NCBI GenBank assembly: GCA_913051775.1
Contig: CAJXCL010000001.1
Location: 21,936 to 85,935 of the forward strand
Source: an uncultured Nitrospirota bacterium
GTDB taxonomy: Bacteria; Nitrospinota; Nitrospinia; CAJXCL01
Direction of reading: 5' to 3'
DNA length: 64,000 nucleotides
Both the position numbers and the translations under genes were made by a program. Positions 1,986-58,623 of this stretch are shown here, in pieces (the stretch's first letter is position 1; every line of letters begins with the position of its first letter). The notes below the pieces were generated by a model. That model saw only the letters and a program-made list of their open reading frames with translations. It did not search any database and was not told where the DNA came from.

Positions 1986-3341
1986 ATGAAAAACGAAATC
2001 AGTAAAAACATTTTCAGGTTATACGATATACGTGGTGTTGCTTATGAAGAGTTAACACCTGATACTGTAAATATTATAGGCAAAGCCTACGGAACTTATA
2101 TGAGAAGTATGGGGTACAACACGATAACCGTTGGATGTGATAACAGAGCAAGTTCGGATGAATTTTTTAATGTTCTGAGCGAAGGAATTAATTCAACAGG
2201 TTGTAATGTAATTAACCTTGGCACAGTTCCTACTCCATTGCTTTATTTTTCACTTTTTCATTTGAAACCTGATGGAGGAATAATGATAACCGGTAGCCAC
2301 AATCCATCGGAATATAACGGGCTTAAGATTTGTGTTGGGAAAGACACTATTTTTGGAGAAGAGATTCAAAAGATTAGAAAAGTTTGTGAAGAAGGTAATT
2401 TTTACCAGGGAACAGGAAAAATAGAAGATGCCGATGTTATTACACCATATACAAAACTCCTCCTTGAAAAGTTCCAGTTCAAGAAAAATATCAAAGTAGT
2501 CGTAGATGGTGGAAATGGTGTTGCCGGGACTGTTGTGCCGGCATTATTTGGAAAGCTGGATTGTGATTTCATTCCTCTTTATTGTGAACCTGACAGCCGA
2601 TATCCAAACCATCATCCGGACCCAACAGTCCCGGAAAATCTACAAGACCTCATCAAGTCGGTAAAAGAGAATAAAGCTGACGCTGGAATTGCTTTTGACG
2701 GTGACGTAGATCGCATCGGGGTTATCGATAACCAGGGAAATATTATCTGGGGAGATAGGCTTTTAGTTCTTTATTCCAGAGACGTATTAAAGCGGCACCC
2801 GGGAGCGTCTGTGATTTTTGAAGTGAAATGTTCTCAGACTCTTTACGATGACATTCAGAAGAACGGTGGCAAACCGGTGATGTGCGCTGCCGGGCATTCT
2901 ATTATTAAAGGGGAGATGAAAAAAGAAAAAGCTCTGCTGGCTGGAGAAATGAGCGGACACATGTTTTTTGCGGATGAGTACTTCGGGTACGATGACGCAA
3001 TTTATGCGGCATGCAGGCTTATTAGAATCCTTTCCGAATCAGGTAAAAGCATTTCTCAATTGTTGGATGATGTACCCAAAACCTTTTCAACACCTGAAAT
3101 TCGAGTTGATTGCCCGGATGATGAAAAGTTTGAAGTGATTAAAAAAGTAGCAGATGATCTTAAAAAAGATTTCAAAACTGTTGATATAGATGGTGTTCGG
3201 ATAATTTATGAGCACGGCTGGGGTCTGGTTCGTGCTTCTAATACCCAGCCCGTATTGGTGCTTCGTTTTGAAGCGGATAGTGAGGAGAACCTGAACTATG
3301 TGAGGAATACTATAGAAAGTAAATTAAGGGGGCATTTATGA
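1986..3341 (+). CDS. Phosphomannomutase/phosphoglucomutase (alpha-D-phosphohexomutase family)
   Basis: 451 aa. N-terminal 'FRLYDIRG', active-site Ser loop 'TGSHNPSEYNG', and metal-binding 'FDGDVDR'. Confidence 0.8.
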   Translation: MKNEISKNIFRLYDIRGVAYEELTPDTVNIIGKAYGTYMRSMGYNTITVGCDNRASSDEFFNVLSEGINSTGCNVINLGTVPTPLLYFSLFHLKPDGGIMITGSHNPSEYNGLKICVGKDTIFGEEIQKIRKVCEEGNFYQGTGKIEDADVITPYTKLLLEKFQFKKNIKVVVDGGNGVAGTVVPALFGKLDCDFIPLYCEPDSRYPNHHPDPTVPENLQDLIKSVKENKADAGIAFDGDVDRIGVIDNQGNIIWGDRLLVLYSRDVLKRHPGASVIFEVKCSQTLYDDIQKNGGKPVMCAAGHSIIKGEMKKEKALLAGEMSGHMFFADEYFGYDDAIYAACRLIRILSESGKSISQLLDDVPKTFSTPEIRVDCPDDEKFEVIKKVADDLKKDFKTVDIDGVRIIYEHGWGLVRASNTQPVLVLRFEADSEENLNYVRNTIESKLRGHL

Positions 3342-4005: not shown

Positions 4006-5943
4006 TTACTGCCTTCCCTCTACCAGAGATTCAACCACAGTCGGGTCTGCAAGTGTAGAGGTGTCTCCCATGTTTTCAATGTCTCCTTCGGCAATTTTTT
4101 TCAAAACTCGCCGCATGATTTTCCCTGAACGTGTTTTTGGCAACACCGGTGTAAACTGGATTTTGTCTGGTGTGACATGAGGGCCCAAAAGCTTGCGTGC
4201 CGTAGAACGAATATTTGCGACGATGCCGTCACTGGAATCCACACCCGTCATTAAAGTTACAAAGGCATAAATCCCCTGGCCTTTTATATCGTGCGGAAAG
4301 CCTACTACTGCGGCTTCCGCAACGCCTTTTGTCTGGCCTATGGCTCCCTCGACTTCAGCAGTGCCTATGCGGTGTCCTGAAACATTCAGCACATCATCCA
4401 CCCGTCCGGTAATCCAATAATAACCATCCTCATCTCTGGTAGCGCCGTCTCCCGTAAGATAATATCCGGGGAATTGATCGAAGTATATTTGTCGAAAGCG
4501 TTCATGATCTCCATAGACGGTTCGCATGATTCCCGGCCATGCCGCTTTGATAGCAAGATATCCTTTGCAAGGTCCCTCAAGTTCTTTACCCGATTCATCT
4601 AATATCACTGGCTGCACACCGAAAAAAGGAAGTGTTGCCGAGCCGGGTTTTGTAGAAATTGCGCCCGGTAAGGGAGTAATCAGTATTCCACCTGTCTCTG
4701 TTTGCCACCAGGTGTCTACTATCGGACACCGATCTTTACCTATTTTCCGGTGATACCATAACCACTCAGGTTCTTTAATGGGTTCTCCCACAGTTCCAAG
4801 CAGACGAAGTGATGATAAATCGTGTTTTTCAGGCCATTCATTCCCTTCTTTCATCAATGATCTAAGAGCTGTCGGGGCTGTGTAAAAGAGATTAATTTTA
4901 TGCTTTTCCACTATTTGCCAGAACCGCCCAAAATCAGGATAATTAGGTACTCCCTCAAACATTACTGTAATGGCACGATTGGCTAACGGACCGTAAACAA
5001 TATAAGAATGACCTGTTACCCAGCCGATGTCAGCAGTACACCAATAAATATCTCCTTCATGATAATCGAAAATCAGCTCGTGTGAATATGAAGTGTAGAC
5101 CAGGTACCCGCCGGTTGTGTGAAGCACTCCTTTAGGCTTGCCAGTTGAACCGGAAGTGTACAATATAAACAAAGGATCTTCCGCGTCCATTTCCTCAGGA
5201 GCACCTTGATCCCTTGCTTCTGACATTGCCTGATCCCAGTAAATATCTCTTCCTTCTTTCATTTTTACTTTTTCACTTGTTCTTCGGACAACGACAATCT
5301 TTTCAATTGATGGACATTCAGCGGCAGCAATATCTGCGTTGGTTTTCATAGGGATATTTGTTTTAGTCCCGCGGACGCCCGTATCTTGGGTGATCAGCAT
5401 CTTACATGATGAGTCGTTGATACGGTCTTTCAGGGAACCAGAGCTAAACGCTCCAAAAACTATAGAATGAACCGCTCCAATACGGGCGCAGGCGAGCATG
5501 GCAACCGGAAGTTCGGGAATCATCTGAAGATAGATACAAATGCGATCGCCTTTTTTTATACCATTATCCTTCATGGCATTTGCGAATTTTTGAACATCAG
5601 TAAGAAGCTCTGAATAAGTGAATGTCTTTGACTCCTTTGGATCATTCCCCTCCCATATCAGGGCAGTTTTATTGCCATGACCTGCCTCCACATGCCTGTC
5701 GAGGCAATTATAGCTGACATTTAGTTTTCCTCCTTCAAACCATTTGATATCTGCCTTCACAAAATCGTATTTAACCACAGTTTCCCATTTCCTGCTCCAG
5801 TCAAGCCTTTCAGCTACTTTTCCCCAAAACCCCGCGGGATTTTGAATAGATTCTTTGTAAAGTTCTTGATATTTTTCTAAAGAACTAATATGCGCATTTG
5901 CGGAAAAATCAGGATTCGGTGAAAATTTCTTAATATTGCTCAT
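4006..5943 (-). CDS. acs: Acetyl-CoA synthetase (AMP-forming)
   Basis: 645 aa. AMP-binding signature '[12 protein letters not shown]'. Overall Acs architecture with C-terminal '[11 protein letters not shown]'. Confidence 0.95.
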
Positions 5944-5960: not shown

Positions 5961-6080
5961 GTGAAAGTCTTTAGCTAGTGCAGCCTTCGCAGCTTGCTGC
6001 GGGGCTAGCGAGCGAACTTAAAATGAAATCATACTCTACACTGAAGATTTCCAGTAGCTTGCTACGGGGAGCTTCAATGT
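5961..6080. repeat. Family-A repeat, composite copy (partial short form fused to a long form; A2)
   Basis: 'gtgaaagtctttagctagtgcagccttcgcagcttgctgcgggg' is followed by 'ctagcgagcgaacttaaaatgaaatcatactctacactgaagatttccagtagcttgctacggggagcttcaatg'. It lies in the 860-bp divergent acs/msrP intergenic region. Confidence 0.7.
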
Positions 6081-6178: not shown

Positions 6179-6232
6179 TGAAAGTGCTTAGCGAGCGCAT
6201 TTTTCACAGCTTTGCTGCTAGGAGCTTCAAAA
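6179..6232. repeat. Family-A repeat, short form (A3)
   Basis: 'gaaagtgcttagcgagcgcatttttcacagctttgctgctaggagcttcaaaag', about 100 nt from A2. Confidence 0.65.
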
Positions 6233-10101: not shown

Positions 10102-10521
10102 AATCGTACTATTTAATTTTCACAACAAATTTATCACAATTATTACAGACTTTTATACTATAATTTTTAGAGGTATAGAATTTATTAATCCGCGGAACAG
10201 AGAAGGGTCGCGAAATAATGAATATTGATTTATTTTTTTTCGTGCTTTTCGTGGTTGATTATTAAATTTGATTGCAGTTTTGTGGCGATATGCAAAGTCA
10301 AAGTGAACTGGTTCAGATATTATCAAGGTTGAAAAGAACCCCATACCCGGCTACCGAAGTATAAAAGAGATATGCGAATTAATAATGACAGATGTACGAG
10401 AGAAAGGACTGGACTGTTTAAGTGAAGAGTGGATAAGAGGAGATCTGTCTGAATTTAGAATCTTTGAATTGGCAGCTACTCTGAATCGCTTTCGAAGCCT
10501 AAAGGTAAAGCAAATAAGTTT

Positions 10522-10572
10522 GGAAGTGTTTAGCGAGCGCATTTCTAGCAGCTTGCTGCGGGGAGCTTCAAT
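10522..10572. repeat. Family-A repeat, short form (A4)
   Basis: 'gaagtgtttagcgagcgcatttctagcagcttgctgcggggagcttcaat'. Intergenic between cobO and the CDP-alcohol phosphatidyltransferase operon. Confidence 0.7.
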
Positions 10573-10617
10573 TTCAGGCAACCTGCTATCACCCAGATTG
10601 CCTTTTACACCAGTTCT

Positions 10618-19895: not shown

Positions 19896-19957
19896 TCAAA
19901 TCTCCTTTATTGGTGCATATTCGCGTAATTCGTGGTTAAGAAATAATAACATAAATC

Positions 19958-20106
19958 GGAGAGGCTCGACAACCACAATTCGGCATGGAAAGCCGAATTG
20001 GACGGATTCCGAAGGAAAAACGCCCCAAGGGTGAGGGCAGGGATGGCTGAAATCAAGTGAAGCTTCCGCTCCGGAGAGCTAATAAAAAAATTTGTTCAAA
20101 AAAAAT
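19958..20106 (+). repeat. Family-B ~145-nt structured intergenic element (copy B1; candidate ncRNA or cis-regulatory RNA)
   Basis: 'caaccacaattcgg...aattgga.gg.ttccgaag.aaaa.cgcc.caaggg.tgagg.ca.ggatggc.ga.aatcaa...hairpin...ctaataaaaa..ttgt.caaaaaaaa' is shared with 28843-28987 (about 80% identity). The terminal hairpin shows a compensatory change. Confidence 0.6.
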
Positions 20107-20209
20107 TTATTTTACAAATTAATAGTATAAGAGGTGAAGCTTTTCTAAACCTATTTATATCAGTAGGTAGTTGACTTAACAATTTCATTTTGTTTAAACT
20201 AAACGCATC

Positions 20210-21565
20210 ATGAACGATTTTGAAAAATCGAGAGGATTCTGGGGTTCCCGCGCAGGGTTTGTAATTGCAGCGGCGGGTTCCGCTATCGGATTGGGGAATA
20301 TTTGGAAATTTCCTTATATTACAGGCCAGCACGGGGGAGGGGCGTTCGTCATTGTGTACCTGATATGTATTGTTTTGATAGGAATCCCCATAATGCTGGC
20401 GGAATTTACAATTGGAAGGAAAACTCATAAGAACCCTGTAGGAGCATATAAAAATATCCATCCGGCAGGTTTATGGTTTCTTGTTGGAGGAATGGGAGTT
20501 TTAGCGGGATTTATGATTTTGTCCTTCTACAGCGTGGTTGCGGGCTGGACAATCGCGTATGTTGTTAGATCCATCTTTATGTTGGTAACCCAATTTGAGA
20601 CAGCTGCCGATGCGGGAAAATATTTTGGAAATTTTGCTTCAAACCCCTTTGAAGCGTTATTGTTCCATACCATATTTATGAGCCTGTGCATCTCTATAGT
20701 TATTAAAGGCGTCAGATCAGGGATAGAAAAGTCATGTGATATCCTCATGCCGACACTTCTATTTATACTTGTATTGCTTGTTATTAGATCACTGACCCTG
20801 AAGGGTGCGTGGGCAGGAGTAGTATTTTATTTAAAACCGGAGTTCAGCAAGCTCACTGCTCAGGGTGTCCTGGTGGCATTGGGTCACGCTTTTTTCTCTT
20901 TAAGTTTAGGAATGGGCGCGATGATTACTTACGGCAGCTATCTTTCTAAAAAAGAAAACCTTGCCTCTTCCGCTTTGATAGTAGGTGCCCTTGATACAGT
21001 GATTGCTTTATTAGCCGGGCTGATGATTTTCCCGGCTGTCTTTGCTATGGGACTAGAACCTTCTGCGGGTCCGGGACTGGTATTTCATGTATTACCCGCT
21101 GTTTTTTCTAAAATGCCATTTGGGAATATAGTTTCCATTGCTTTTTTTACCCTCCTTGCCATTGCCGCATTAACATCAGGCATTTCACTTCTTGAAGTTG
21201 TTGTCGCATATTTCATAGATGAAATTCGCTGGAGTAGAAAAAAAGCCGTTTTGATAGTTGGTAGCGTGATTTTTATTTTGGGGATTCCATCAGCTCTTTC
21301 TTTTGGTGCATTTGGTGAGTATAAGCTTTTTGGAATGAACTTTTTCGATATTGTTGACCACATAGCTTCAAATTATCTGTTGCCTCTGGGGGGCCTGTTG
21401 ATCTGCGTTTTTGTCGCGTGGGTATGGGGTCCAAAACCTGCTCTGGAAGAAATACATATAGGCGAACATAAATTTCCGTTTGCCGGTGGCTGGGTATTCC
21501 TGGTTAAATATATTTCTCCCGTTGCGGTAGGGATTATTTTGATCGCTAAATTAATGGGAAAATAA
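20210..21565 (+). CDS. Sodium-dependent transporter, neurotransmitter:sodium symporter (SNF/NSS) family
   Basis: 451 aa. 'GFWGSRAGFVIAAAGSAIGLGNIWKFPY' NSS TM1 signature. About 12 TM segments. Confidence 0.85.
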   Translation: MNDFEKSRGFWGSRAGFVIAAAGSAIGLGNIWKFPYITGQHGGGAFVIVYLICIVLIGIPIMLAEFTIGRKTHKNPVGAYKNIHPAGLWFLVGGMGVLAGFMILSFYSVVAGWTIAYVVRSIFMLVTQFETAADAGKYFGNFASNPFEALLFHTIFMSLCISIVIKGVRSGIEKSCDILMPTLLFILVLLVIRSLTLKGAWAGVVFYLKPEFSKLTAQGVLVALGHAFFSLSLGMGAMITYGSYLSKKENLASSALIVGALDTVIALLAGLMIFPAVFAMGLEPSAGPGLVFHVLPAVFSKMPFGNIVSIAFFTLLAIAALTSGISLLEVVVAYFIDEIRWSRKKAVLIVGSVIFILGIPSALSFGAFGEYKLFGMNFFDIVDHIASNYLLPLGGLLICVFVAWVWGPKPALEEIHIGEHKFPFAGGWVFLVKYISPVAVGIILIAKLMGK

Positions 21566-23114: not shown

Positions 23115-23564
23115 ATGAAAAAAAGTATTCTTTGTTTTTTGTTATTTTTAGTTTTCTCCTGGGTTGCGGTGGAATCAGGATTTTCCGATAACAACGACAA
23201 TGATAATGTCATCAAAAAAGTTTCTCCTGAAATATCTAATATAAAGGTAGAACCATTATCCGGTTATAACGGAACAGTTATCAGAATAACCCTCGAGATA
23301 AACGACCTACAGGGTTTAGATAATATACGCAAAGAGCTATATCAAATACGTGAAGGAATCGAGCCTATTGTGTTAAAGCTCTCTGACGACGGGACTCACG
23401 GTGATACTGTAGCCAACGATAGCATCTTTTATGCGGAGACAATAGTTCCAAAAACCGCTGCAAAAGGGGTTCATGAGTTTCATGTGTTTGTATTTGATAA
23501 GGATGGCAATAAAAGTAATACACTGACTTATAAATTTACAGTTAGTGAGCTTCTTGAAGTTTAA
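23115..23564 (+). CDS. Hypothetical secreted protein (signal peptide, possible Ig-like beta domain)
   Basis: 149 aa. N-terminal hydrophobic signal 'MKKSILCFLLFLVFSWVAV', then D/N-rich linker. Confidence 0.4.
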   Translation: MKKSILCFLLFLVFSWVAVESGFSDNNDNDNVIKKVSPEISNIKVEPLSGYNGTVIRITLEINDLQGLDNIRKELYQIREGIEPIVLKLSDDGTHGDTVANDSIFYAETIVPKTAAKGVHEFHVFVFDKDGNKSNTLTYKFTVSELLEV

Positions 23565-23596
23565 AGCATAAAGCGGCAAGTTTCCGTAACAGAATG

Positions 23597-23642
23597 GAGC
23601 TTCCGCTCCAGTGAACAAACAAAAAAACTTGTTCAAAAAAAA
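23597..23642 (+). repeat. Family-B partial copy (3' hairpin plus A-rich tail only; B3)
   Basis: 'ggagcttccgctccagtgaacaaacaaaaaaacttgttcaaaaaaaag' matches the 3' end of B1. Located 70 nt upstream of prpD. Confidence 0.55.
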
Positions 23643-23709
23643 GTTTTCACAGTGTAATAGCAAAGACGATCTTCCTTCTTTAATACATGATTTTGAGGTT
23701 TTTTTTATC

Positions 23710-28686: not shown

Positions 28687-28751
28687 GAAAGCAATTTTAA
28701 CATAATTGACAACGTAAGTATCTCACTTTATAATGCCTCCTTTAGATGTCG

Positions 28752-28775: not shown

Positions 28776-28842
28776 CTCTACTTTTTTCTATGTAATACTG
28801 AGACAGGTTTAGTGTGACATACAGCCGTTTTCCACAGAGTAG

Positions 28843-28987
28843 CGAGGCCACCAACCACAATTCGGTAAGGAATGCAAAATTGGATGGTTTCCGAAGAAAA
28901 GCCGCCCAAGGGGTTGAGGCCATGGATGGCCGATAATCAAATGGGCTGCCGCCCAGTCTGCTAATAAAAAGTTGTGCTAAAAAAACA
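28843..28987 (+). repeat. Family-B ~145-nt structured intergenic element (copy B2), 40 nt upstream of tRNA-Gln
   Basis: Aligns with B1 throughout. The hairpin 'tgggctgccgcccag' replaces B1's 'gaagcttccgctcc' (A-T to G-C covariation). Confidence 0.6.
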
Positions 28988-29026
28988 CAATTATACAGAT
29001 TTACAGTACAGAGGTTATCAATTGAG

Positions 29027-29100
29027 TTGGGGGATGGTCTAATGGCAGGACGAGCGGCTCTGACCCGCTTAGTGAAGGTTCGAATCCTTCTCCCCCAGCC
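29027..29100 (+). tRNA. tRNA-Gln (anticodon CUG)
   Basis: 74-nt cloverleaf folded by hand. Acceptor TGGGGGA/TCCCCCA. D-stem GTCT/GGAC. Anticodon stem AGCGG/CCGCT with loop cTCTGac. T-arm GAAGG-TTCGAAT-CCTTC. Discriminator G, encoded CCA. U1-A72 as in bacterial tRNA-Gln. Confidence 0.9.
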
Positions 29101-29306
29101 ACGCTCAGCGTGGCTGAGTCCTGCTCAGCGGGACAGCCATCTCAAGCATTAAAGTTTTGCAATTAGTAAGAATATTATTTTTGTACTATGAATTATTAAG
29201 GCTCTTTCCCAAATGTTCTACGTTTATATTCTCCATAGCATAAAAGATAGGCAACTATGATGGGTTTGTGAGAGCTAGATATTAGAGCAGGCCAGTAAAT
29301 TAATAT

Positions 29307-32307: not shown

Positions 32308-33231
32308 TTAAATAATAAACCTCTTCGCTACTTTTTGACTTTCGTATTCATTGCAATTTTTGCATATTTGCGGAAAATCTTTATCCATATGTCTTTTTCG
32401 GAGCCTTCTCATAGCTAGTCCGTTCCAGATGGAATCCACTGTTTCATTCAGGACGTTCCCGATTTGGAGCTCTCCTTCATAATCCGCGCAGCAGGGAACA
32501 ACTTTTCCGTCCCACAAGACCACCACCTTTCCGTAATCTTTCCCAAAAAGTTCTGGACAGATATCTGTCCTTTGTAATGCAAACTTGTAAAATTGTGTTT
32601 TTTTAGCACAATTTTTTTTAGCAGATTGGACGGTAGCCCCTTTGGTAGTGGCCTCTTGGCTATGCTGTGAACGGATTAATTTAGGTTGAAAACGAACATG
32701 GTCTGCTATGGATTTCCACTTATCATAAAAGGAGTCCATATCTTTTTCTGTTTGTTCTTCAACAACCATTACAATCCCTATTTTAAGGGGGCTGTTTTTC
32801 TCGTTTCTACCTTTTATCAGATTCAAAATATTATTTTCGATTATTTGAAAATCAATACCCCGAATTTTTTGGTATGTGTCCGGGTTTCCATCCACAGAAA
32901 TTCTCAATACACTTAAAGGACTGTTAAGAATTCTGTGGATAGTGTTGTCATCGAGCAATGTTCCGTTGGTATTAAAAACCGTATAACGAATTCCTTTATT
33001 ATGAGCATATTTGATCATATTAAATAAATCTTTGTTCTGCGTTGGTTCACCCCAGTTATGAAGGCAGAGATGCTTCAGCGATTTTCCGCTACCGATTGTT
33101 TTTTGAAAAAGTTCAAAAGACATGAATCCTTTTTTTCTTTTCATTTCATTATTAGTCGGACATATGCGGCAATTCAAATTACATACATTCGTCGTCTCAA
33201 TAGTTAATGATGTGAGTTTATTGATTTTCAT
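32308..33231 (-). CDS. Radical SAM enzyme with C-terminal SPASM-like Cys cluster
   Basis: 307 aa. 'ETTNVCNLNCRIC' CxxxCxxC. C-terminal 'PCCADYEGELQIGNV...CKNCNEY'. Confidence 0.7.
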   Translation of the reverse strand: MKINKLTSLTIETTNVCNLNCRICPTNNEMKRKKGFMSFELFQKTIGSGKSLKHLCLHNWGEPTQNKDLFNMIKYAHNKGIRYTVFNTNGTLLDDNTIHRILNSPLSVLRISVDGNPDTYQKIRGIDFQIIENNILNLIKGRNEKNSPLKIGIVMVVEEQTEKDMDSFYDKWKSIADHVRFQPKLIRSQHSQEATTKGATVQSAKKNCAKKTQFYKFALQRTDICPELFGKDYGKVVVLWDGKVVPCCADYEGELQIGNVLNETVDSIWNGLAMRRLRKRHMDKDFPQICKNCNEYESQKVAKRFII

Positions 33232-36638: not shown

Positions 36639-36680
36639 TTGAAGCTCCCTGCAGCAAAGCTGCGAGGAATTTTCAGTAAA
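36639..36680 (-). repeat. Family-A repeat, short form, reverse orientation (A6)
   Basis: Reverse complement 'ctgaaaattcctcgcagctttgctgcagggagcttcaat' matches the A4/A5 3' half. Confidence 0.6.
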
Positions 36681-36734
36681 GAATATTGGGCAGAATAACA
36701 AGATTACTAATTAACAGTTTACATCTTTCAATTA

Positions 36735-40838: not shown

Positions 40839-41816
40839 TTAAAAATTAATTATTTTTTTCAAACCCTGTAAAATCCTATCAACACTTGGTATATAATAAT
40901 CCTCACCTTTGGCAAGAGGGACGGCGATATCTTGCCCGGTAACCCTTAATACCGGCGCGTTAAGACTCAAAAGCGCTTTTTCATTTATCAAAGCGACTAT
41001 TTCAGCGCCCAATCCGCATGTTTTAGGTGCTTCGTGGACGACCAAAGCTCTACCGGTTTTTTCTACAGAGGTGATTATTGTATCCTTATCTAAAGGAGAA
41101 AGTGTTCTCAAATCTATTATCTCTATGTCAATATTCTCTTTCTCTGCTTCTTCCGAAACCGTTTCCACAACCCTAACCATAGCCCCCCAGCAAATAACAG
41201 TGATGTCTTTTCCTTCTTTAACCATTCTGGCCTTGCCCAGAGGTATGGTGTATTCCTCTTCAGGGATATCTTCTTTAATAGCCCTGTAAATTCTTTTTGG
41301 TTCAAGAAAAATTACAGTATCAGGGTCTCTAATGGCGGATGTAAGGAGTCCTTTGGTGTCTTTTGGAGTGGACGGGACTACCACCTTGATTCCTGGGATC
41401 TGGGTAAAGAGAGCTTCCGTGCTTTCGGAGTGATGCTCGGGTGCACGGATTCCTGCCCCATAAGGCACTCTGATAACCAGCGGAGCAGTAATTCTTCCGC
41501 GAGTTCTGTTTCTCAACCTCGCGGCATGACAGATGATATGATTTAGGATGTAATATACAAAGCCCATAAACTGAATTTCAGCAACAGGCCTTAACCCGTT
41601 CACTGCCATCCCTAACGCGCCGGCAACAATACCGTTTTCCGAGAGGGGAGTATCTATTACCCTGTTATCACCAAATTCCTCTAACAGTCCGATAGTAGCC
41701 CTGAAGACCCCGCCGTTTACCCCAACGTCTTCACCAAGAACGATGACACGGTCATCCCGCTTCATTTCTTCTTTTAACGCCAGGTTAACCGATTCAATTA
41801 TATTATGAACCGCCAT
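40839..41816 (-). CDS. 2-Oxo-acid dehydrogenase E1 component beta subunit
   Basis: 325 aa. Transketolase-like pyrimidine-binding and C-terminal domains. Confidence 0.85.
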   Translation of the reverse strand: MAVHNIIESVNLALKEEMKRDDRVIVLGEDVGVNGGVFRATIGLLEEFGDNRVIDTPLSENGIVAGALGMAVNGLRPVAEIQFMGFVYYILNHIICHAARLRNRTRGRITAPLVIRVPYGAGIRAPEHHSESTEALFTQIPGIKVVVPSTPKDTKGLLTSAIRDPDTVIFLEPKRIYRAIKEDIPEEEYTIPLGKARMVKEGKDITVICWGAMVRVVETVSEEAEKENIDIEIIDLRTLSPLDKDTIITSVEKTGRALVVHEAPKTCGLGAEIVALINEKALLSLNAPVLRVTGQDIAVPLAKGEDYYIPSVDRILQGLKKIINF

Positions 41817-41991
41817 AATAATTGACTATACAGCACGGTAAGTTGCCGCAACCAAAAGGGCTACCGCCCGTTGTCCAACAAAACTTTTAAAAAAAACGAA
41901 ATAATGTTGCAAGTTTGTAATACAGATTACTAAAATTTATTACAATTATTTACTTGTTTTTATTTTTAAACTTCCAAAAACTAACAACCTA

Positions 41992-43065
41992 TCACTCCTT
42001 TAGGCTTTCTTTTAATTCCTCCAACTCCTCTTTAATATGCCATGGCATTTCAGCATATGTATACTTAAAAAAATCTTCTATGTCAGGCGGCGGTTCGGCC
42101 TCTGCCTTTTTTACGGCTTCGTCTACCAGATCTTCCGCTTCTTTTCTTGTCTCTTTTTCAAAATTTTTATTCCATATCTGCTTTGATCCCAAATAAGATT
42201 TAAATCTTGCGATAGGATCTTTGCCGCGCCATTCATCAATTTCTTTTTCGCTTCTGTAGCGGGACGCATCATCTGCTGTGGTATGATCACCCATGCGATA
42301 TGTGACTGCTTCAATAAGAGTTGGCCCATCTCCTTTATTTGCTCTGTCAACAGCCTCTTTTGTGACGGCATACACGGCAAGGATGTCATTCCCATCCACC
42401 TGGATACCGTTAAAGCCGTATCCTATTGCCTTTTGAGCCAGGGTTTTAGACGCGCTTTGTTTTGTTCTAGGTACGGATATAGCCCACTGGTTGTTAATGC
42501 AGAGAAATACAGTTGGGGTTTTAAATACGCCGGCAAAGTTTAGCCCATCATGAAAATCTATTGCTGATGTAGCCCCGTCCCCAAAAGAAATCAGGGTAAC
42601 TGCTTTCTCTTTTTTCAGTTTTGAAGCCCAGGAAAATCCCATGCCGAGAGATATCTGACTGCCAACAGGGATAGCAATAGGAAACACATTTGTTCCTTCA
42701 GGGAATCTGCATCCATTTTCATTTCCCATCCAGTAAAGAAAAATAAGATCCAGGGGAACTCCCATCACAAGCATGGCGCCCATATCCCTGTACACAGGGA
42801 ACAGCCAATCATTTTTGTTCATGGCAAAGGCAGATCCGATCTGAACCGCCTCATGCCCTTTTAAAGGAGGGTATGTTCCAATTCTCCCTTCCCTTTGCAG
42901 GGCGAAAGCCTTCTCATCCGCAATGCGGGATAGAACCATGTATTTGTATATTTCGATTAAATCTTTTTTTTCAATTTTTGGTTCTAACTCGCTGTTGACA
43001 TTCCCATTTTCATCCAGTATTTGCAGCCTCTTGTTTTTTAAAGGATCGTATTCATCAATAAGCAT
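41992..43065 (-). CDS. 2-Oxo-acid dehydrogenase E1 component alpha subunit (TPP-dependent)
   Basis: 357 aa. TPP-binding 'GDGATSAIDFHDGLNFAG'. Confidence 0.85.
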   Translation of the reverse strand: MLIDEYDPLKNKRLQILDENGNVNSELEPKIEKKDLIEIYKYMVLSRIADEKAFALQREGRIGTYPPLKGHEAVQIGSAFAMNKNDWLFPVYRDMGAMLVMGVPLDLIFLYWMGNENGCRFPEGTNVFPIAIPVGSQISLGMGFSWASKLKKEKAVTLISFGDGATSAIDFHDGLNFAGVFKTPTVFLCINNQWAISVPRTKQSASKTLAQKAIGYGFNGIQVDGNDILAVYAVTKEAVDRANKGDGPTLIEAVTYRMGDHTTADDASRYRSEKEIDEWRGKDPIARFKSYLGSKQIWNKNFEKETRKEAEDLVDEAVKKAEAEPPPDIEDFFKYTYAEMPWHIKEELEELKESLKE

Positions 43066-56091: not shown

Positions 56092-56175
56092 GTGAAAGTG
56101 TTTAGCGAGCGAATTTAAAAAAAATTATACTCTACACTGAAAATTCTCAGTAGCTTGCTACGGGAAGCTTCAATG
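56092..56175. repeat. Family-A repeat, long form (A5), inserted between murD and ftsW inside the dcw cluster
   Basis: 'gtgaaagtgtttagcgagcgaatttaaaaaaaattatactctacactgaaaattctcagtagcttgctacgggaagcttcaatg'. The track-predicted ftsW start (56155) lies inside it. Confidence 0.7.
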
Positions 56176-56196
56176 TGGCTAAAATTTAATAATAGG

Positions 56197-57380: not shown

Positions 57381-58496
57381 ATGAAAATTATCATAGTCGG
57401 GGGGGGAACAGGAGGTCATCTTTTCCCGGGGATAGCAATTGCACGGGAGTTTCAAAAGAGGAACCCGAAAATAAAAATTCTATTTGTGGGAACTCGTAAA
57501 GGAATTGAATTTAAAGTGTTGCCAAAAGAAAAATTAGAACTAAAAACAATATTGTCCAGCGGGCTGAAAGGGAAAATATCCTGGCGTACACTGATAGCTC
57601 TTGTAGAAATGCCAATAGCGCTTTTACAGTCTCTTTTGGTTCTTATTAATTTCAGGCCAAAGCTTGTTCTGGGTGTTGGTGGATACGTAACAGGTCCTTT
57701 TGTTTTAATGGCATGGTTATTAAGGATACCTACTGCTATACAAGAGCAAAACTCAATGCCTGGAATGACAAATCGTATTTTAGGAAAAATTGTGGACAAA
57801 ATATTTGTCACATTTGAGAAATCAAAAAAACACTTCCCTGAAAAAAAAGTGGAAGTAACCGGAAATCCTATTCGGGAGGAATATTATGAAGCTAAAGATA
57901 GAACAAAGGAATCACGGTTTAATGTCCTTATTTTTGGCGGGAGTAAAGGCGCAAGTAGTATTAACCGCGCTATGGTTGAAGCTCTTGATTTTCTGTCAGA
58001 AGATAAAAATTCGATACACTTTATTCACCAGACAGGTGAGGAACAGTTTAAAACTGTACAAGCAAGATACAGGTCAAAAAATATTTCCGCTGAGGTAAAC
58101 CAGTTTATTTACAATATGGCTGATGTTTACCGAAGATCGAATTTGGTTATATGCAGGGCAGGAGCATCAACCATTGCCGAGTTAGCGGCCAGCGGACGAG
58201 CAGCTATTTTAGCTCCTTATCCCTTTGCGGCAAATAACCATCAGCAATTGAACGCGGAATACCTTGTAGATAATGGCGCGGCGGTTATGGTGAAGGATTC
58301 CGATTTGTCCGGAAAGAAATTAGCAGAACTAATTAAAAAACTGATGGATCAGCCGAATCTGCTGCGTGAAATGGAAAAAAAAAGTGCCAGAATGGCTAAG
58401 AAAGATGCAGAGAAAAAAATTGTAGATCAGTGTTATAAACTTGCATTTAGTAATATTTCATTGCAGAGAATGCATGGTTTGGCAGGCTTATCGTGA
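57381..58496 (+). CDS. murG: UDP-GlcNAc--undecaprenyl-PP-MurNAc-pentapeptide GlcNAc transferase
   Basis: 371 aa. N-terminal 'GGGTGGHLFPGIAIA' G-loop. GT28 architecture. Confidence 0.9.
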   Translation: MKIIIVGGGTGGHLFPGIAIAREFQKRNPKIKILFVGTRKGIEFKVLPKEKLELKTILSSGLKGKISWRTLIALVEMPIALLQSLLVLINFRPKLVLGVGGYVTGPFVLMAWLLRIPTAIQEQNSMPGMTNRILGKIVDKIFVTFEKSKKHFPEKKVEVTGNPIREEYYEAKDRTKESRFNVLIFGGSKGASSINRAMVEALDFLSEDKNSIHFIHQTGEEQFKTVQARYRSKNISAEVNQFIYNMADVYRRSNLVICRAGASTIAELAASGRAAILAPYPFAANNHQQLNAEYLVDNGAAVMVKDSDLSGKKLAELIKKLMDQPNLLREMEKKSARMAKKDAEKKIVDQCYKLAFSNISLQRMHGLAGLS

Positions 58497-58623
58497 CATG
58501 TTATGTCTCTGTACTCAAATTTAAAAAATTGTGTTTTTTTGGCACAATTTATGTTAGTAGACCGGGCGGCAGCTCATTTGGTTGCGCTTCCCTGGCTGTT
58601 CTGTGACAGCAATTATTTGTCAT

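What the first reader, a model, noticed from the sequence alone, without database searches (positions are those of the whole stretch)
19958..20106. Family-B ~145-nt conserved intergenic element with hairpin covariation: candidate structured ncRNA or cis-regulatory leader
Two full copies (19958-20106 and 28843-28987) share about 80% identity over about 145 nt: 'caaccacaattcgg…aattgga.gg.ttccgaag.aaaa.cgcc.caaggg.tgagg.ca.ggatggc.ga.aatcaa'. Both end in a short hairpin plus an A-rich tail 'ctaataaaaa..ttgt.caaaaaaaa'. The hairpin differs between copies by compensatory changes: ggAgc-ttcc-gcTcc in B1 and the partial copy B3, versus gGgc-tgcc-gcCc in B2. That pattern suggests selection on structure rather than on sequence. 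A third copy (23597-23642) has only the 3' hairpin and tail. All three are in the same orientation immediately upstream of + strand genes (SNF transporter, tRNA-Gln, prpD), and also upstream of the divergent minus-strand rSAM and thrC genes. The element does not match any RNA family I can recognise by eye (tmRNA, RNase P, 6S, SRP, T-box, SAM or B12 boxes).
Basis: seen in the sequence. Interest (0 to 1): 0.6.

Follow-up and report, generated by a model that had tools for sequence, protein, structure and literature searches.

The report
Nested mobile hairpin repeat in Nitrospinota
The two ~175-nt "conserved intergenic elements" are copies of a small mobile DNA repeat family that is scattered through marine nitrite-oxidiser (Nitrospinota) genomes, is missing from the same sites in close relatives and even sits in frame inside protein genes, so they are not a dedicated regulatory RNA.

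Summary
The repeat is real. B1 and B2 are about 75% identical over 177 nt (blastn E about 1e-26). It is not a locus-specific leader or a single ncRNA gene.

The window holds six copies of one dispersed family, on both strands. I found 41 distinct copies in about 380 kb of related marine Nitrospinota DNA.

- **Basic unit.** It is about 92 nt: three short hairpins (H1, H2, H3), no terminal inverted repeats, and a 4-6 bp direct repeat (RCAGAG or ATAAAG) at the two junctions.
- **B1 and B2.** They are this unit with a second ~81-nt hairpin module ("MA") nested after the motif AACCA. Elsewhere MA also sits directly after the CCA end of a tmRNA gene, and in tandem with itself.
- **Empty sites.** Relatives have empty sites for B1, B2 and B4, exact to within the repeat.
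- **B4.** It is a 93-nt in-frame insertion in a radical-SAM/SPASM gene. Three more real genes in related contigs carry in-frame copies.
- **B2.** It lies between a perfect sigma-70 promoter and tRNA-Gln.
- **B1.** It lies upstream of the conserved promoter-like site of the transporter gene.

The best reading is a TIR-less, target-specific, non-autonomous mobile element that behaves like the Rickettsia palindromic elements. I found no Rfam match and no literature. The enzyme that mobilises it is unknown.

The parts
19957..20126 (+). B1: composite (long-form) copy, made of the base element with the nested MA module. It is flanked by the direct repeat ATAAAT (19951-19956) and ATAAGA (20127-20132).
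   Evidence: Sequence. blastn against B2. CM hit at 20029-20134. The empty site in relative L074 reads ...CATAACATAAG^GAGTGAAAC.
19976..20055 (+). MA module inside B1. It has hairpins HA1 (AATTCGGC/GCCGAATT), HA2 (GGACGG..CGCCCC around TTCC-GAA-GGAA) and HA4 (GGGCA/TGGCT). It is inserted after CAACCA (19970-19975).
   Evidence: Alignment A6 of 9 MA copies. Pair counts.
28840..29007 (+). B2: composite (long-form) copy, flanked by ACAGAG (28834-28839) and ACAGAG (29008-29013). It ends 14 nt before tRNA-Gln.
   Evidence: Sequence. CM hit at 28914-29015. The empty site in related species L070 reads ...TTTTTCACAGAGGTCATCAATTGAG-tRNA.
28858..28939 (+). MA module inside B2, inserted after CAACCA (28852-28857). 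HA4 is GGCCA-TGGA-TGGCC.
23574..23665 (+). B3: complete short-form copy without MA. It starts 9 nt after the stop codon of ORF 23115-23564 and lies 45 nt upstream of prpD. Its junction repeats are ATAAAG (23568-23573) and GCAAAG (23660-23665).
   Evidence: An orthologous copy is present in L070 at 20288-20388.
32570..32662 (-). B4: short-form copy inserted in frame (93 nt, 31 codons) in the radical-SAM/SPASM gene 32308-33231 (-).
   Evidence: Translation. Protein alignment A4: orthologs of 276-288 aa lack the 31 aa, and P0004 carries the long form in frame. Empty-site DNA in L068/L069 reads TCTTCACAAAGAACAGAT.
41836..41927 (+). B6: short-form copy lying antisense between two minus-strand genes. 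It is 13 nt from the start of gene 40839-41816 and 65 nt from the stop of gene 41992-43065.
58507..58598 (-). B5: short-form copy lying antisense between two plus-strand genes, 11 nt after the stop of gene 57381-58496. Its H1 is degenerate. The ortholog in L063 (2361-2461) has an intact H1.
28706..28734 (+). Perfect sigma-70-type promoter match (TTGACA-17-TATAAT) upstream of B2 and tRNA-Gln. It is conserved in the species that lacks B2. If it is the tRNA-Gln promoter, B2 is inside the pre-tRNA leader.
   Evidence: The same hexamers are visible in L070.
29028..29098 (+). tRNA-Gln (CTG) gene immediately downstream of B2.
   Evidence: Rfam RF00005, 63.4 bits. ARAGORN on the ortholog in L070.
20171..20200 (+). 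Promoter-like site (TTGACT-18-TAAACT) for the SNF transporter gene, downstream of B1. The TTGACTTAA block is conserved in L072, L073 and L074. B1 is therefore not in the SNF 5' leader.

Best explanation
B1 and B2 are two insertions of a small, non-autonomous mobile DNA element family that is dispersed through marine Nitrospinota genomes.

**Base element.** It is about 92 nt: (R)CAGAG | H1 GYGGC-loop-GCCRC | AACCAAAT | H2 GGGC-TNCC-GCCC | AATCTGCTAAnAAAAA | H3 AAAATTGTG-CTAAAAAAA-CACAATTTT | ACAAGTTTGYAGT | (R)CAGAG.

**Insertion.** It goes into RYARAG-like hexamers and leaves that hexamer, or at least 4 nt of it, at both junctions. It has no terminal inverted repeats.

**B1/B2 type.** It carries a second ~81-nt three-hairpin module (MA) nested after AACCA. 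A third ~45-nt module can nest in the H3 loop of other copies.

**Shown**
- Multi-copy dispersal on both strands.
- Empty sites in relatives, exact to within the junction repeat.
- In-frame occupancy of coding genes.
- Hairpins maintained by compensatory change.

**Inferred**
- The hairpins are the recognition features for a trans-acting enzyme encoded elsewhere. The most likely type acts on folded single strands (HUH/Y1-like, or another site-specific recombinase). A DDE transposase is unlikely because there are no TIRs.
- The elements themselves have no dedicated regulatory role at these loci.
- Their local effects are incidental: B2 lengthens the tRNA-Gln leader by 174 nt, B4 adds 31 residues to a radical-SAM enzyme, and B1 may contribute a -35 box to the divergent rSAM gene.
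For: **Family size and spread**
- Six copies in the window, by nhmmer and by an unfiltered covariance-model search.
- 52 hits, 41 of them distinct, in about 380 kb of related DNA.
- Hits in several Nitrospinota MAGs. Protein sources name Nitrospinota/Nitrospinaceae.

**Empty sites**
- B2.
- B1.
- B4.
- The same rSAM site holds the short form in the window and the long form (with MA) in L070.
- L074 lacks B1 but has another copy, in the opposite orientation, abutting the SNF start codon.

**In-frame insertions in genes with Pfam domains on both sides**
- rSAM/SPASM.
- A Radical_SAM + Radical_SAM_C gene.
- TPMT.
- An RNB/S1 (RNase II/R-type) gene.

**Anatomy and context**
- No orientation bias: same/same 10, opposite/opposite 8, divergent 5, convergent 2.
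- No TIRs: alignment scores are at shuffle level.
- Left and right junction hexamers agree within a copy more than between copies: 3.61 against 3.28 +/- 0.13 matches of 6, reached by 22 of 2000 permutations.
- Hairpin covariation.
- MA sits directly after the CCA end of a tmRNA gene and in tandem.
- Nested copies of the third module.
Against: - No autonomous partner or transposase was found in the DNA I could reach. tblastn with recalled IS200 TnpA and RAYT sequences gave nothing, but only about 0.7 Mb of sequence was held.
- The six strain-level contigs of the same population all carry the same four copies, so there is no evidence of ongoing mobility within the population.
- The B2 empty site rests on one assembled contig. 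A second contig of that species is rearranged there.
- Presence/absence does not follow protein divergence cleanly. P0006 at 85% identity lacks B4, while P0005 at 78% has it. L074 at 89% lacks B1, while L072 at 83% has a copy. Precise loss or repeated insertion must therefore be assumed.
- Strong hairpin conservation could also reflect an RNA-level function that I cannot test.
Confidence: 0.8

Rival explanations
1. Host-maintained REP/BIME-like elements. On this view the hairpin mosaics are kept because, once transcribed within operons and leaders, they act as RNA stabilisers, partial terminators or processing or protein-binding sites. This would make them a functional RNA-level element, whatever their origin.
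For: - Hairpins are kept by compensatory changes.
- Many copies lie within about 30 nt of stop or start codons, in intercistronic spacers.
- The reverse complement of H2 gives weak terminator-like matches in B1, B2 and B3.
- G.U-type changes in MA occur on the forward strand.
- Loops of HA1 and HA4 carry GGA motifs.
Against: - Copies occur in both orientations with no bias.
- They occur inside coding sequences, read in frame.
- In the short form, G.T and A.C mismatches are about equally common: 24 against 14, or 17 against 14 without one doubtful pair. This gives no clear strand.
- Relatives do without the element at the same sites.
- H3 is AT-rich and makes a poor terminator.
Confidence: 0.2
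2. B1 and B2 would be a structured small RNA gene, or a cis-regulatory 5' leader (riboswitch-like) controlling the downstream SNF transporter, tRNA-Gln or prpD genes.
For: - B1, B2 and B3 all point toward downstream + strand genes.
- The MA module has covariation-supported hairpins.
- B2 is probably transcribed as part of the tRNA-Gln precursor.
Against: - No Rfam match, even at permissive thresholds.
- The MFE folds of B1 and B2 differ, and their z-scores are only -1.8 and -2.5.
- RNAalifold gives a consensus of -1.76 kcal/mol with 3 pairs.
- The element is absent upstream of the orthologous tRNA-Gln and SNF genes in relatives.
- B1 lies upstream of the conserved SNF promoter-like site.
- The downstream genes are functionally unrelated.
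- The same sequence is translated inside genes.
Confidence: 0.06
3. Mobile promoter cassette. On this view the conserved 3' part (TTGTGC-16 nt-TACARR) is an outward-facing promoter that the element delivers to downstream genes, as Correia elements do in Neisseria.
For: - The spacing of TTGTGC and TACAAG/TACAGA is 16 nt (read directly from the sequence).
- B1, B2 and B3 face downstream genes.
- A minus-strand promoter-like match (TTGTCG-18-TATTAT, 19972-19943) uses B1 sequence as its -35 box, facing the divergent rSAM gene.
Against: - The consensus scan found no forward promoter-like site inside any copy.
- The -10 candidate lacks the conserved final T.
- tRNA-Gln and SNF have their own better, conserved promoter-like sites outside the element.
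- Half of the copies face gene 3' ends or lie inside ORFs.
Confidence: 0.05

Closest known systems
Rickettsia palindromic elements (RPEs)
   Same: - Hairpin-forming dispersed repeats of about 100-150 bp, with no coding capacity of their own.
- Found in intergenic DNA and next to RNA genes.
- Repeatedly inserted in frame in unrelated metabolic genes, so that they are translated as extra peptide segments (review PMC10969869). Here.
- The mobilising enzyme is unknown.
   Different: - The host is a free-living marine chemolithoautotroph phylum, not an obligate intracellular alphaproteobacterium.
- The element has three separate short hairpins, not one long palindrome.
- It has a defined target hexamer that is repeated at both junctions.
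- It has nested sub-modules (MA and the H3-loop module).
- Sequence similarity to RPE families was not tested.
Bacterial MITEs (for example Correia/NEMIS, ERIC, QMITE of Coxiella)
   Same: - Small (50-800 bp) and non-coding.
- Multi-copy and mostly intergenic, occasionally intragenic with in-frame fusions.
- Flanked by short direct repeats.
- Show presence/absence between relatives (PMC3184786, PMC10969869, PMC5896051, PMC11602168).
   Different: - MITEs are defined by terminal inverted repeats of at least 10-15 bp that match an IS. This family has none.
- The flanking repeat is the same hexamer in nearly all copies, which indicates strong target specificity.
REP/BIME and REPIN elements with RAYT (Y1/HUH) transposases; IS200/IS605-derived PATEs
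   Same: - Short GC-rich hairpins combined in mosaics.
- No TIRs.
- Hundreds of copies expected per genome.
- Hairpin next to a conserved short motif at the junction.
- Target-sequence-specific insertion, with precise loss plausible.
- G.T-tolerant hairpins, as expected for single-strand recognition.
   Different: - The unit is longer (92-175 nt) and has three unlike hairpins.
- It is not restricted to extragenic DNA.
- No GTAG-type motif was established.
- No RAYT or TnpA gene was found in the sequence held, so this is not a test of the genome.
- IS200/IS605 elements make no target duplication. The junction repeat here may or may not be one.
Pneumococcal BOX elements
   Same: Modular small repeats (boxA, boxB(n), boxC) with optional or tandem middle modules and stable hairpins. 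Here: base element +/- MA +/- loop module, and tandem MA.
   Different: - Here the optional modules look like nested insertions, each with its own target motif (AACCA^ or CTAA^). They are not a variable number of one box.
- There is no sequence relation to BOX elements.

Membership tests
MITE (miniature inverted-repeat transposable element) | Terminal inverted repeats of at least about 10-15 bp | tested here: not met
   For 10 copies, the first 30 nt were aligned against the reverse complement of the last 30 nt. Local scores were 4-6, against shuffle means of 3.7-4.9 and shuffle maxima of 6-10.
MITE (miniature inverted-repeat transposable element) | Target-site duplication flanking the element; empty sites in relatives | tested here: met
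   - Empty sites carry one copy of the hexamer and filled sites carry it at both junctions: B2 ACAGAG, B1 ATAA(A/G), B4 ACA(A/G).
- Within-copy left/right agreement exceeds permutation, reached by 22 of 2000.
- The repeat length (4-6 bp) is not resolved, and the data cannot exclude an element-borne right end.
MITE (miniature inverted-repeat transposable element) | Small, non-coding, many dispersed copies | tested here: met
   - The element is 92-176 nt.
- Six copies in 64 kb.
- 41 distinct copies in about 380 kb.
MITE (miniature inverted-repeat transposable element) | A cognate autonomous IS with the same ends | not testable with these tools
   No complete genome of the host was accessible. 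No case of element ends flanking an ORF was seen in the loci held.
REP/BIME with RAYT | 20-40 nt GC-rich extragenic palindrome with a conserved 5' tetranucleotide; a RAYT gene in the genome | tested here: inconclusive
   - H1 alone is REP-like (GYGGC(C)-loop-(G)GCCRC, next to the junction hexamer), but the unit is 92 nt with two other unlike hairpins.
- It is also found inside genes.
- tblastn with a recalled RAYT sequence found nothing in about 0.7 Mb, which says little about the genome.
IS200/IS605-derived non-autonomous element (PATE-like) | No TIRs, subterminal hairpins, insertion 3' of a specific short target, no duplication, Y1 TnpA in trans | tested here: inconclusive
   - No TIRs.
- Hairpins are present and the target is specific.
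- Whether the right-hand hexamer is a duplication or part of the element cannot be decided.
- The hairpins at the two ends are unlike each other.
- No TnpA was found in the held DNA.
Rickettsia palindromic elements (as a behavioural class) | Repeated in-frame insertion of a hairpin repeat into unrelated protein-coding genes | tested here: met
   - rSAM/SPASM gene: 31 aa in the window, and a longer version (52 aa) in P0004 that includes MA.
- A Radical_SAM/Radical_SAM_C gene, a TPMT gene and an RNB/S1 gene, each with Pfam domains on both sides of the insert.
- Sequence homology to RPE families was not tested.
Described structured RNA family (Rfam), riboswitch or leader | Match to a covariance model; conserved position upstream of orthologous genes | tested here: not met
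   - No Rfam hit at gathering or permissive thresholds on B1, B2 or related copies.
- The element is absent upstream of the orthologous tRNA-Gln gene and SNF gene.
Intrinsic terminator | GC-rich stem followed by a U tract, downstream of a gene, in the sense orientation | tested here: inconclusive
   - Only weak matches, on the reverse strand at H2 of B1, B2 and B3.
- H3 is AT-rich.
- Copies occur in both orientations and upstream of genes.

The most novel reading that the evidence does not exclude
The family may be a previously undescribed kind of guide-directed mini mobile element.

- It is a set of TIR-less hairpin modules (base element, MA, loop module) that parasitise one another.
- Each module inserts next to its own short motif: RCAGAG, NCCA^ (including the 3' CCA end of tmRNA) and CTAA^.
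- In MA, an invariant internal GGTTG can pair with the 5 nt just 5' of the insertion point: CAACC, CAGTC, CAGCT, CCACC or AAATC. 95% of cells are paired, and every one-sided change that keeps pairing is of the G.U type on the forward strand. That is how IS200/IS605 ends and group II introns read their targets.

If this is right, a single-stranded DNA or RNA intermediate and an unknown host-encoded enzyme mobilise these elements. They would also be an RPE-like source of new peptide segments in an abundant ocean nitrifier.
Probability: 0.15. Interest if true: 0.75.

Novelty: new variant of a known kind. Interest (0 to 1): 0.5.

Why it matters
**For annotation.** These sequences should be masked as repeats. 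They should not be called sRNAs or riboswitches. The extra 25-52 residues in several Nitrospinota enzymes are repeat-derived inserts.

**For biology.** In-frame colonisation of protein genes by a hairpin repeat is best known from Rickettsia. This finding shows that it also occurs in free-living marine nitrite oxidisers, which are key players in the ocean nitrogen cycle.

**For mobile-DNA research.** The family offers a clean natural system: empty and filled sites exact to within the junction repeat, nested modules, and a defined target hexamer. It could be used to find the enzyme that moves TIR-less hairpin elements.

**At the loci themselves.** The insertions change a tRNA-Gln leader, two intercistronic spacers and a radical-SAM enzyme loop. 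These are testable phenotypic consequences.

Tried and rejected
- **Rfam.** Gathering thresholds on the whole window, and permissive E-values on B1, B2 and two related loci. Only tRNA-Gln and a tmRNA were found.
- **RNAalifold on 15 copies.** The consensus was -1.76 kcal/mol with 3 pairs. Whole-element folds of B1 and B2 disagree with each other, so I rejected a single global fold.
- **Promoter and terminator scan.** No forward promoter-like site inside any copy, and only weak reverse-strand terminator-like hits at H2.
- **TIR search.** Scores were at chance level.
- **Strand test by wobble counts in the short form.** Not decisive: 24 G.T against 14 A.C.
- **Viral contig scans for both modules.** Zero hits.
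- **Literature.** Nothing relevant on Nitrospina/Nitrospinae repeats or MITEs. A 2024 survey of prokaryotic MITEs does not mention Nitrospinota.
- **Peptide searches to count in-frame insertions across protein databases.** The exhaustive search with the 34-aa window peptide found only the same rSAM, two tiny ORFs and one doubtful 629-aa protein. Both were uninformative.
- **tblastn with IS200 TnpA and RAYT sequences recalled from memory against all held DNA.** Nothing below E = 0.6. This is a lead only, not a test.
- **A guide-like complement to the RCAGAG flank inside the base element.** I looked for one by eye and found only a 4-5 nt match (TCTG(C)) that does not covary, so I dropped it.
- **Splicing as an alternative for the in-gene copies.** I rejected it because all in-gene copies keep the reading frame, have no stop codons and have lengths that are multiples of 3: 93, 78 and 156 nt (52 codons in P0004).
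Full report

Yes, with corrections. B1 (about 19958-20135) and B2 (about 28843-29015) align over 177 nt at 75% identity, blastn E about 1e-26. An ungapped 63-nt block is 81% identical.

They lie at 32569-32671 (-), 41829-41927 (+) and 58507-58607 (-). An unfiltered covariance-model search finds exactly these six and nothing else convincing.

Rfam recognises only tRNA-Gln at 29028-29098 in the window. It finds nothing on the elements, even at E up to 10.

**2. Where does the window come from, and how widespread is the element?**

The threonine-synthase protein of the window occurs on many long marine metagenome contigs of one population. Homologs of window proteins are named Nitrospinota, Nitrospinaceae or Nitrospina by their sources.

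An exact-pattern scan of one genome per species hit several Nitrospinota MAGs, some more than once. Those loci contain clear copies. A metagenome scan with a second pattern gave 30 more loci.

A covariance model built from 20 copies finds 52 hits, 41 of them distinct, in about 380 kb of this DNA. In DNA fetched through proteins, and so not selected for the repeat, there are about 9 copies in about 64 kb. That is similar to the 6 per 64 kb in the window. By extrapolation this means a few hundred copies per genome.

**3. Anatomy**

Aligning the copies shows a base element of about 92 nt. It reads: junction hexamer (A/G)CAGAG (ATAAAG in a subfamily); hairpin H1 (GYGGC(C)-3-4 nt-(G)GCCRC); AACCAAAT; hairpin H2 (GGGC-TNCC-GCCC, or GGAGC-TTCC-GCTCC); AATCTGCTAAnAAAAA; hairpin H3 (AAAATTGTG-CTAAAAAAA-CACAATTTT); ACAAGTTTGYAGT; and then the hexamer again.

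Single copies fold as three independent hairpins on either strand. There are no terminal inverted repeats.

B1 and B2, the 'Family-B' long form, are this element with an extra ~81-nt module nested after AACCA. I call it MA. Its sequence is CAATTCGGCAnGGAAAGCCGAATTGGACGGATTCCGAAGGAAGGCCGCCCGAAGGGTTGAGGCCATGGATGGCCGAAATCA.

MA also occurs in these places:
- in six other loci;
- twice in tandem;
- alone, starting exactly after the 3' CCA of a tmRNA gene (ARAGORN; Rfam 201 bits ending at L060:4349; sequence).

A third module of about 45 nt (GCnTTGCATAAGGCGCTGT...ACAGCGnC) is nested in the H3 loop of several copies. In one copy it is nested inside itself. The thing is therefore a mosaic of nested hairpin modules.

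B3 is a complete short form, not a 3' fragment.

**4. Evidence that it is an insertion, not a conserved regulatory sequence**

(a) B2. A related species shares gene order and is 78-86% identical in the rSAM/SPASM protein. It has the same tRNA-Gln and the same upstream sequence, but reads ...GCCGTTTTTCACAGAGGTCATCAATTGAG-tRNA. The window reads ...TTTTCCACAGAG[174 nt]GTTATCAATTGAG-tRNA. The insert is bounded by ACAGAG on both sides.

(b) B1. The closest relative found (SNF protein 89% identical) reads ...CATAACATAAG^GAGTGAAAC. The window has ATAAAT[element]ATAAGA at that point. A more distant relative (83%) has a diverged long-form copy at the same site, and another (80%) has none.

(c) B4 lies inside the radical-SAM/SPASM gene 32308-33231 (-).
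- Orthologs of 276-288 aa lack exactly 31 residues between FQPKLIxS and QRTDxCPELFG.
- The empty-site DNA reads TCTTCACAAAGAACAGAT.
- One ortholog (P0004, 329 aa) carries the long form at the same site, with MA translated in frame as TIRQGKPNWTVSKGKPPEGLRSRKTEI.

(d) Three other genes in related contigs carry in-frame copies, with Pfam domains on both sides of the insert: a Radical_SAM/Radical_SAM_C gene (between CPH and GGCTYC), a thiopurine-methyltransferase-family gene and an RNB/S1 gene (RNase II/R type).

(e) Orientation relative to flanking genes is unbiased. B5 and B6 lie antisense in intercistronic spacers.

(f) Left and right junction hexamers match within copies better than between copies: 3.61 against 3.28 +/- 0.13 matches of 6, reached by 22 of 2000 permutations. 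This fits a target duplication with a preferred target. Whether 4 or 6 bp are duplicated, or whether the right hexamer belongs to the element as in IS200/IS605, cannot be settled from three empty sites.

**5. Local context of the two copies in the finding**

A perfect TTGACA-17-TATAAT lies at 28706-28734. It is conserved in the species without B2. If it is the tRNA-Gln promoter, B2 sits in the pre-tRNA leader and is co-transcribed and then trimmed away. This is an inference.

The promoter-like site of the SNF gene (TTGACT-18-TAAACT, 20171-20200) is conserved in three relatives and lies downstream of B1. B1 is therefore not in that gene's 5' leader.

A minus-strand promoter-like match (19972-19943) takes its -35 box from B1 and faces the divergent rSAM gene. 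This is only a consensus match.

**6. Structure**

| Alignment | Cells paired | Pairs with double-sided changes | Shuffles reaching this |
|---|---|---|---|
| Hand-specified three-hairpin structure, 20 copies | 88% (slid controls 37-45%) | one strongly covarying pair in H1 (UA 10, CG 8) | not applicable |
| 41 distinct copies | 88% (slid controls 34-49%) | 14 of 19 | 0 of 500 |
| MA, 9 copies | 89% | 6 | 0 of 500 |

Two caveats apply. The 41-copy alignment is fitted to the model. Copies of a repeat family also share descent, so cells are not independent events.

In MA the compensatory changes include AATTCGGC/GCCGAATT to AATTAGGC/GCCTAATT and to AATTTTA/TAAAATT, and GGCCA/TGGCC to GCCCA/TGGGC and to GGTCA/AGACC. 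An A.C mismatch in HA2 is invariant.

In the short form, G.T and A.C mismatches are similarly frequent, so no strand is singled out. In MA the one-sided changes that keep pairing are G.U-type on the forward strand.

An extra helix is possible between the 5 nt preceding MA (CAACC and its variants, including the tmRNA CCACC) and an invariant internal GGTTG. It is 95% paired, with changes only on the 5' side. This resembles guide-target pairing but is not proven.

There is no support for one global fold.

**7. Most likely mechanism**

Shown:
- It is a dispersed, modular, hairpin-bearing repeat.
- It inserts at a preferred hexamer.
- It can be absent from orthologous sites.
- It can be nested.
- It survives inside genes only when it keeps the reading frame.

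Inferred:
- It is a non-autonomous mobile element moved by an enzyme encoded elsewhere.
- Several features point to an enzyme that recognises folded single strands or a short core sequence (HUH/Y1-type, or a site-specific recombinase), not a DDE transposase: there are no TIRs, the hairpins are local and conserved, the target motif is fixed, and loss appears to be precise.
- I found no such gene in the DNA available (a weak test).

RNA-level side effects (leader length, mRNA hairpins, possible -35 donation) are plausible but untested.

**8. Comparison with known systems**

In behaviour it is closest to Rickettsia palindromic elements, which insert in frame in unrelated genes (PMC10969869). More generally it resembles bacterial MITEs, REP/BIME and BOX elements (PMC3184786). 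It fails the defining MITE test (TIRs). It is too long and too intragenic for a REP, and no RAYT is known for it. It matches IS200/IS605-derived elements only in part.

I found no description of such repeats in Nitrospinota.

**9. Verdict**

The finding is a real repeat with real structural conservation. As a 'candidate ncRNA or leader' it is explained away. It is a new, TIR-less, nested variant of the small mobile palindromic repeats, with RPE-like in-frame insertions.

It is of moderate interest. It matters for annotation of marine nitrifier genomes. It also gives an entry point to an unidentified mobilisation mechanism.

Noticed in passing
window 5962-6004, 6018-6080, 6179-6230, 10512-10574, 56114-56176 (+); 36639-36686 (inverted): A second, unrelated repeat family ending in ...CAGCTTGCTGCGGGGAGCTTCAATGT. 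It has at least five copies in the window (D1, D3, I4, I7).
   Followed up: no
window 29099-29140; also L039 about 3215-3240 (-): Directly after tRNA-Gln there are two adjacent hairpins with the same loop: CCACGCTCAGCGTGG and GTCCTGCTCAGCGGGAC. The same GCTCAGCG hairpin motif appears inside a composite element in another locus. It may be a terminator pair or yet another small module.
   Followed up: no
window about 29200-29306: The start of a GIY-YIG-domain gene (MFYVYIL...) is recognisable, but the gene appears truncated here. It is intact (93 aa) at the same place in the related species, L070 14188-14469.
   Followed up: partly
L060 3992-4430: The MA module alone starts exactly after the 3' CCA of a tmRNA gene (Rfam 201 bits, ending at 4349). 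The base element is not present around it.
   Followed up: yes
L043 3806-3992 (-); L038, L039, L041, L042: A ~45-nt hairpin module (GCnTTGCATAAGKCGCWGT...ACWGCGMC) is inserted in the loop of H3, flanked by (C)TAA on both sides. In L043 one copy is nested inside another.
   Followed up: partly
L074 1819-1926 (-): The relative that lacks B1 has a different short-form copy in the opposite orientation. Its junction overlaps the SNF start codon (CATAAT|GCGGCC...), so the sequence just upstream of the ATG is supplied by the element.
   Followed up: partly
MA module, for example window 19985-19991 and 20040-20043, 28925-28928: The loops of hairpins HA1 (AUGGAAA) and HA4 (A/UGGA, within CCAAGGAUGG in several copies) carry GGA motifs. 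These resemble CsrA/RsmA binding hairpins or Shine-Dalgarno mimics. This is purely a resemblance.
   Followed up: no
L071 14480-14846 compared with L070: A second contig of the B2-less species is rearranged at the tRNA-Gln locus. The tRNA is replaced by unrelated sequence, although the downstream hairpins are kept. The B2 empty site therefore rests on one contig.
   Followed up: partly
L054 5280-5366 and 8254-8362 (-): In some copies H2 is replaced by another GC-rich module (...CCCCTCTATCAAGAGGGGTGTCCCTCCGAGACGGGGTGTG...). This is further evidence of mosaicism.
   Followed up: no
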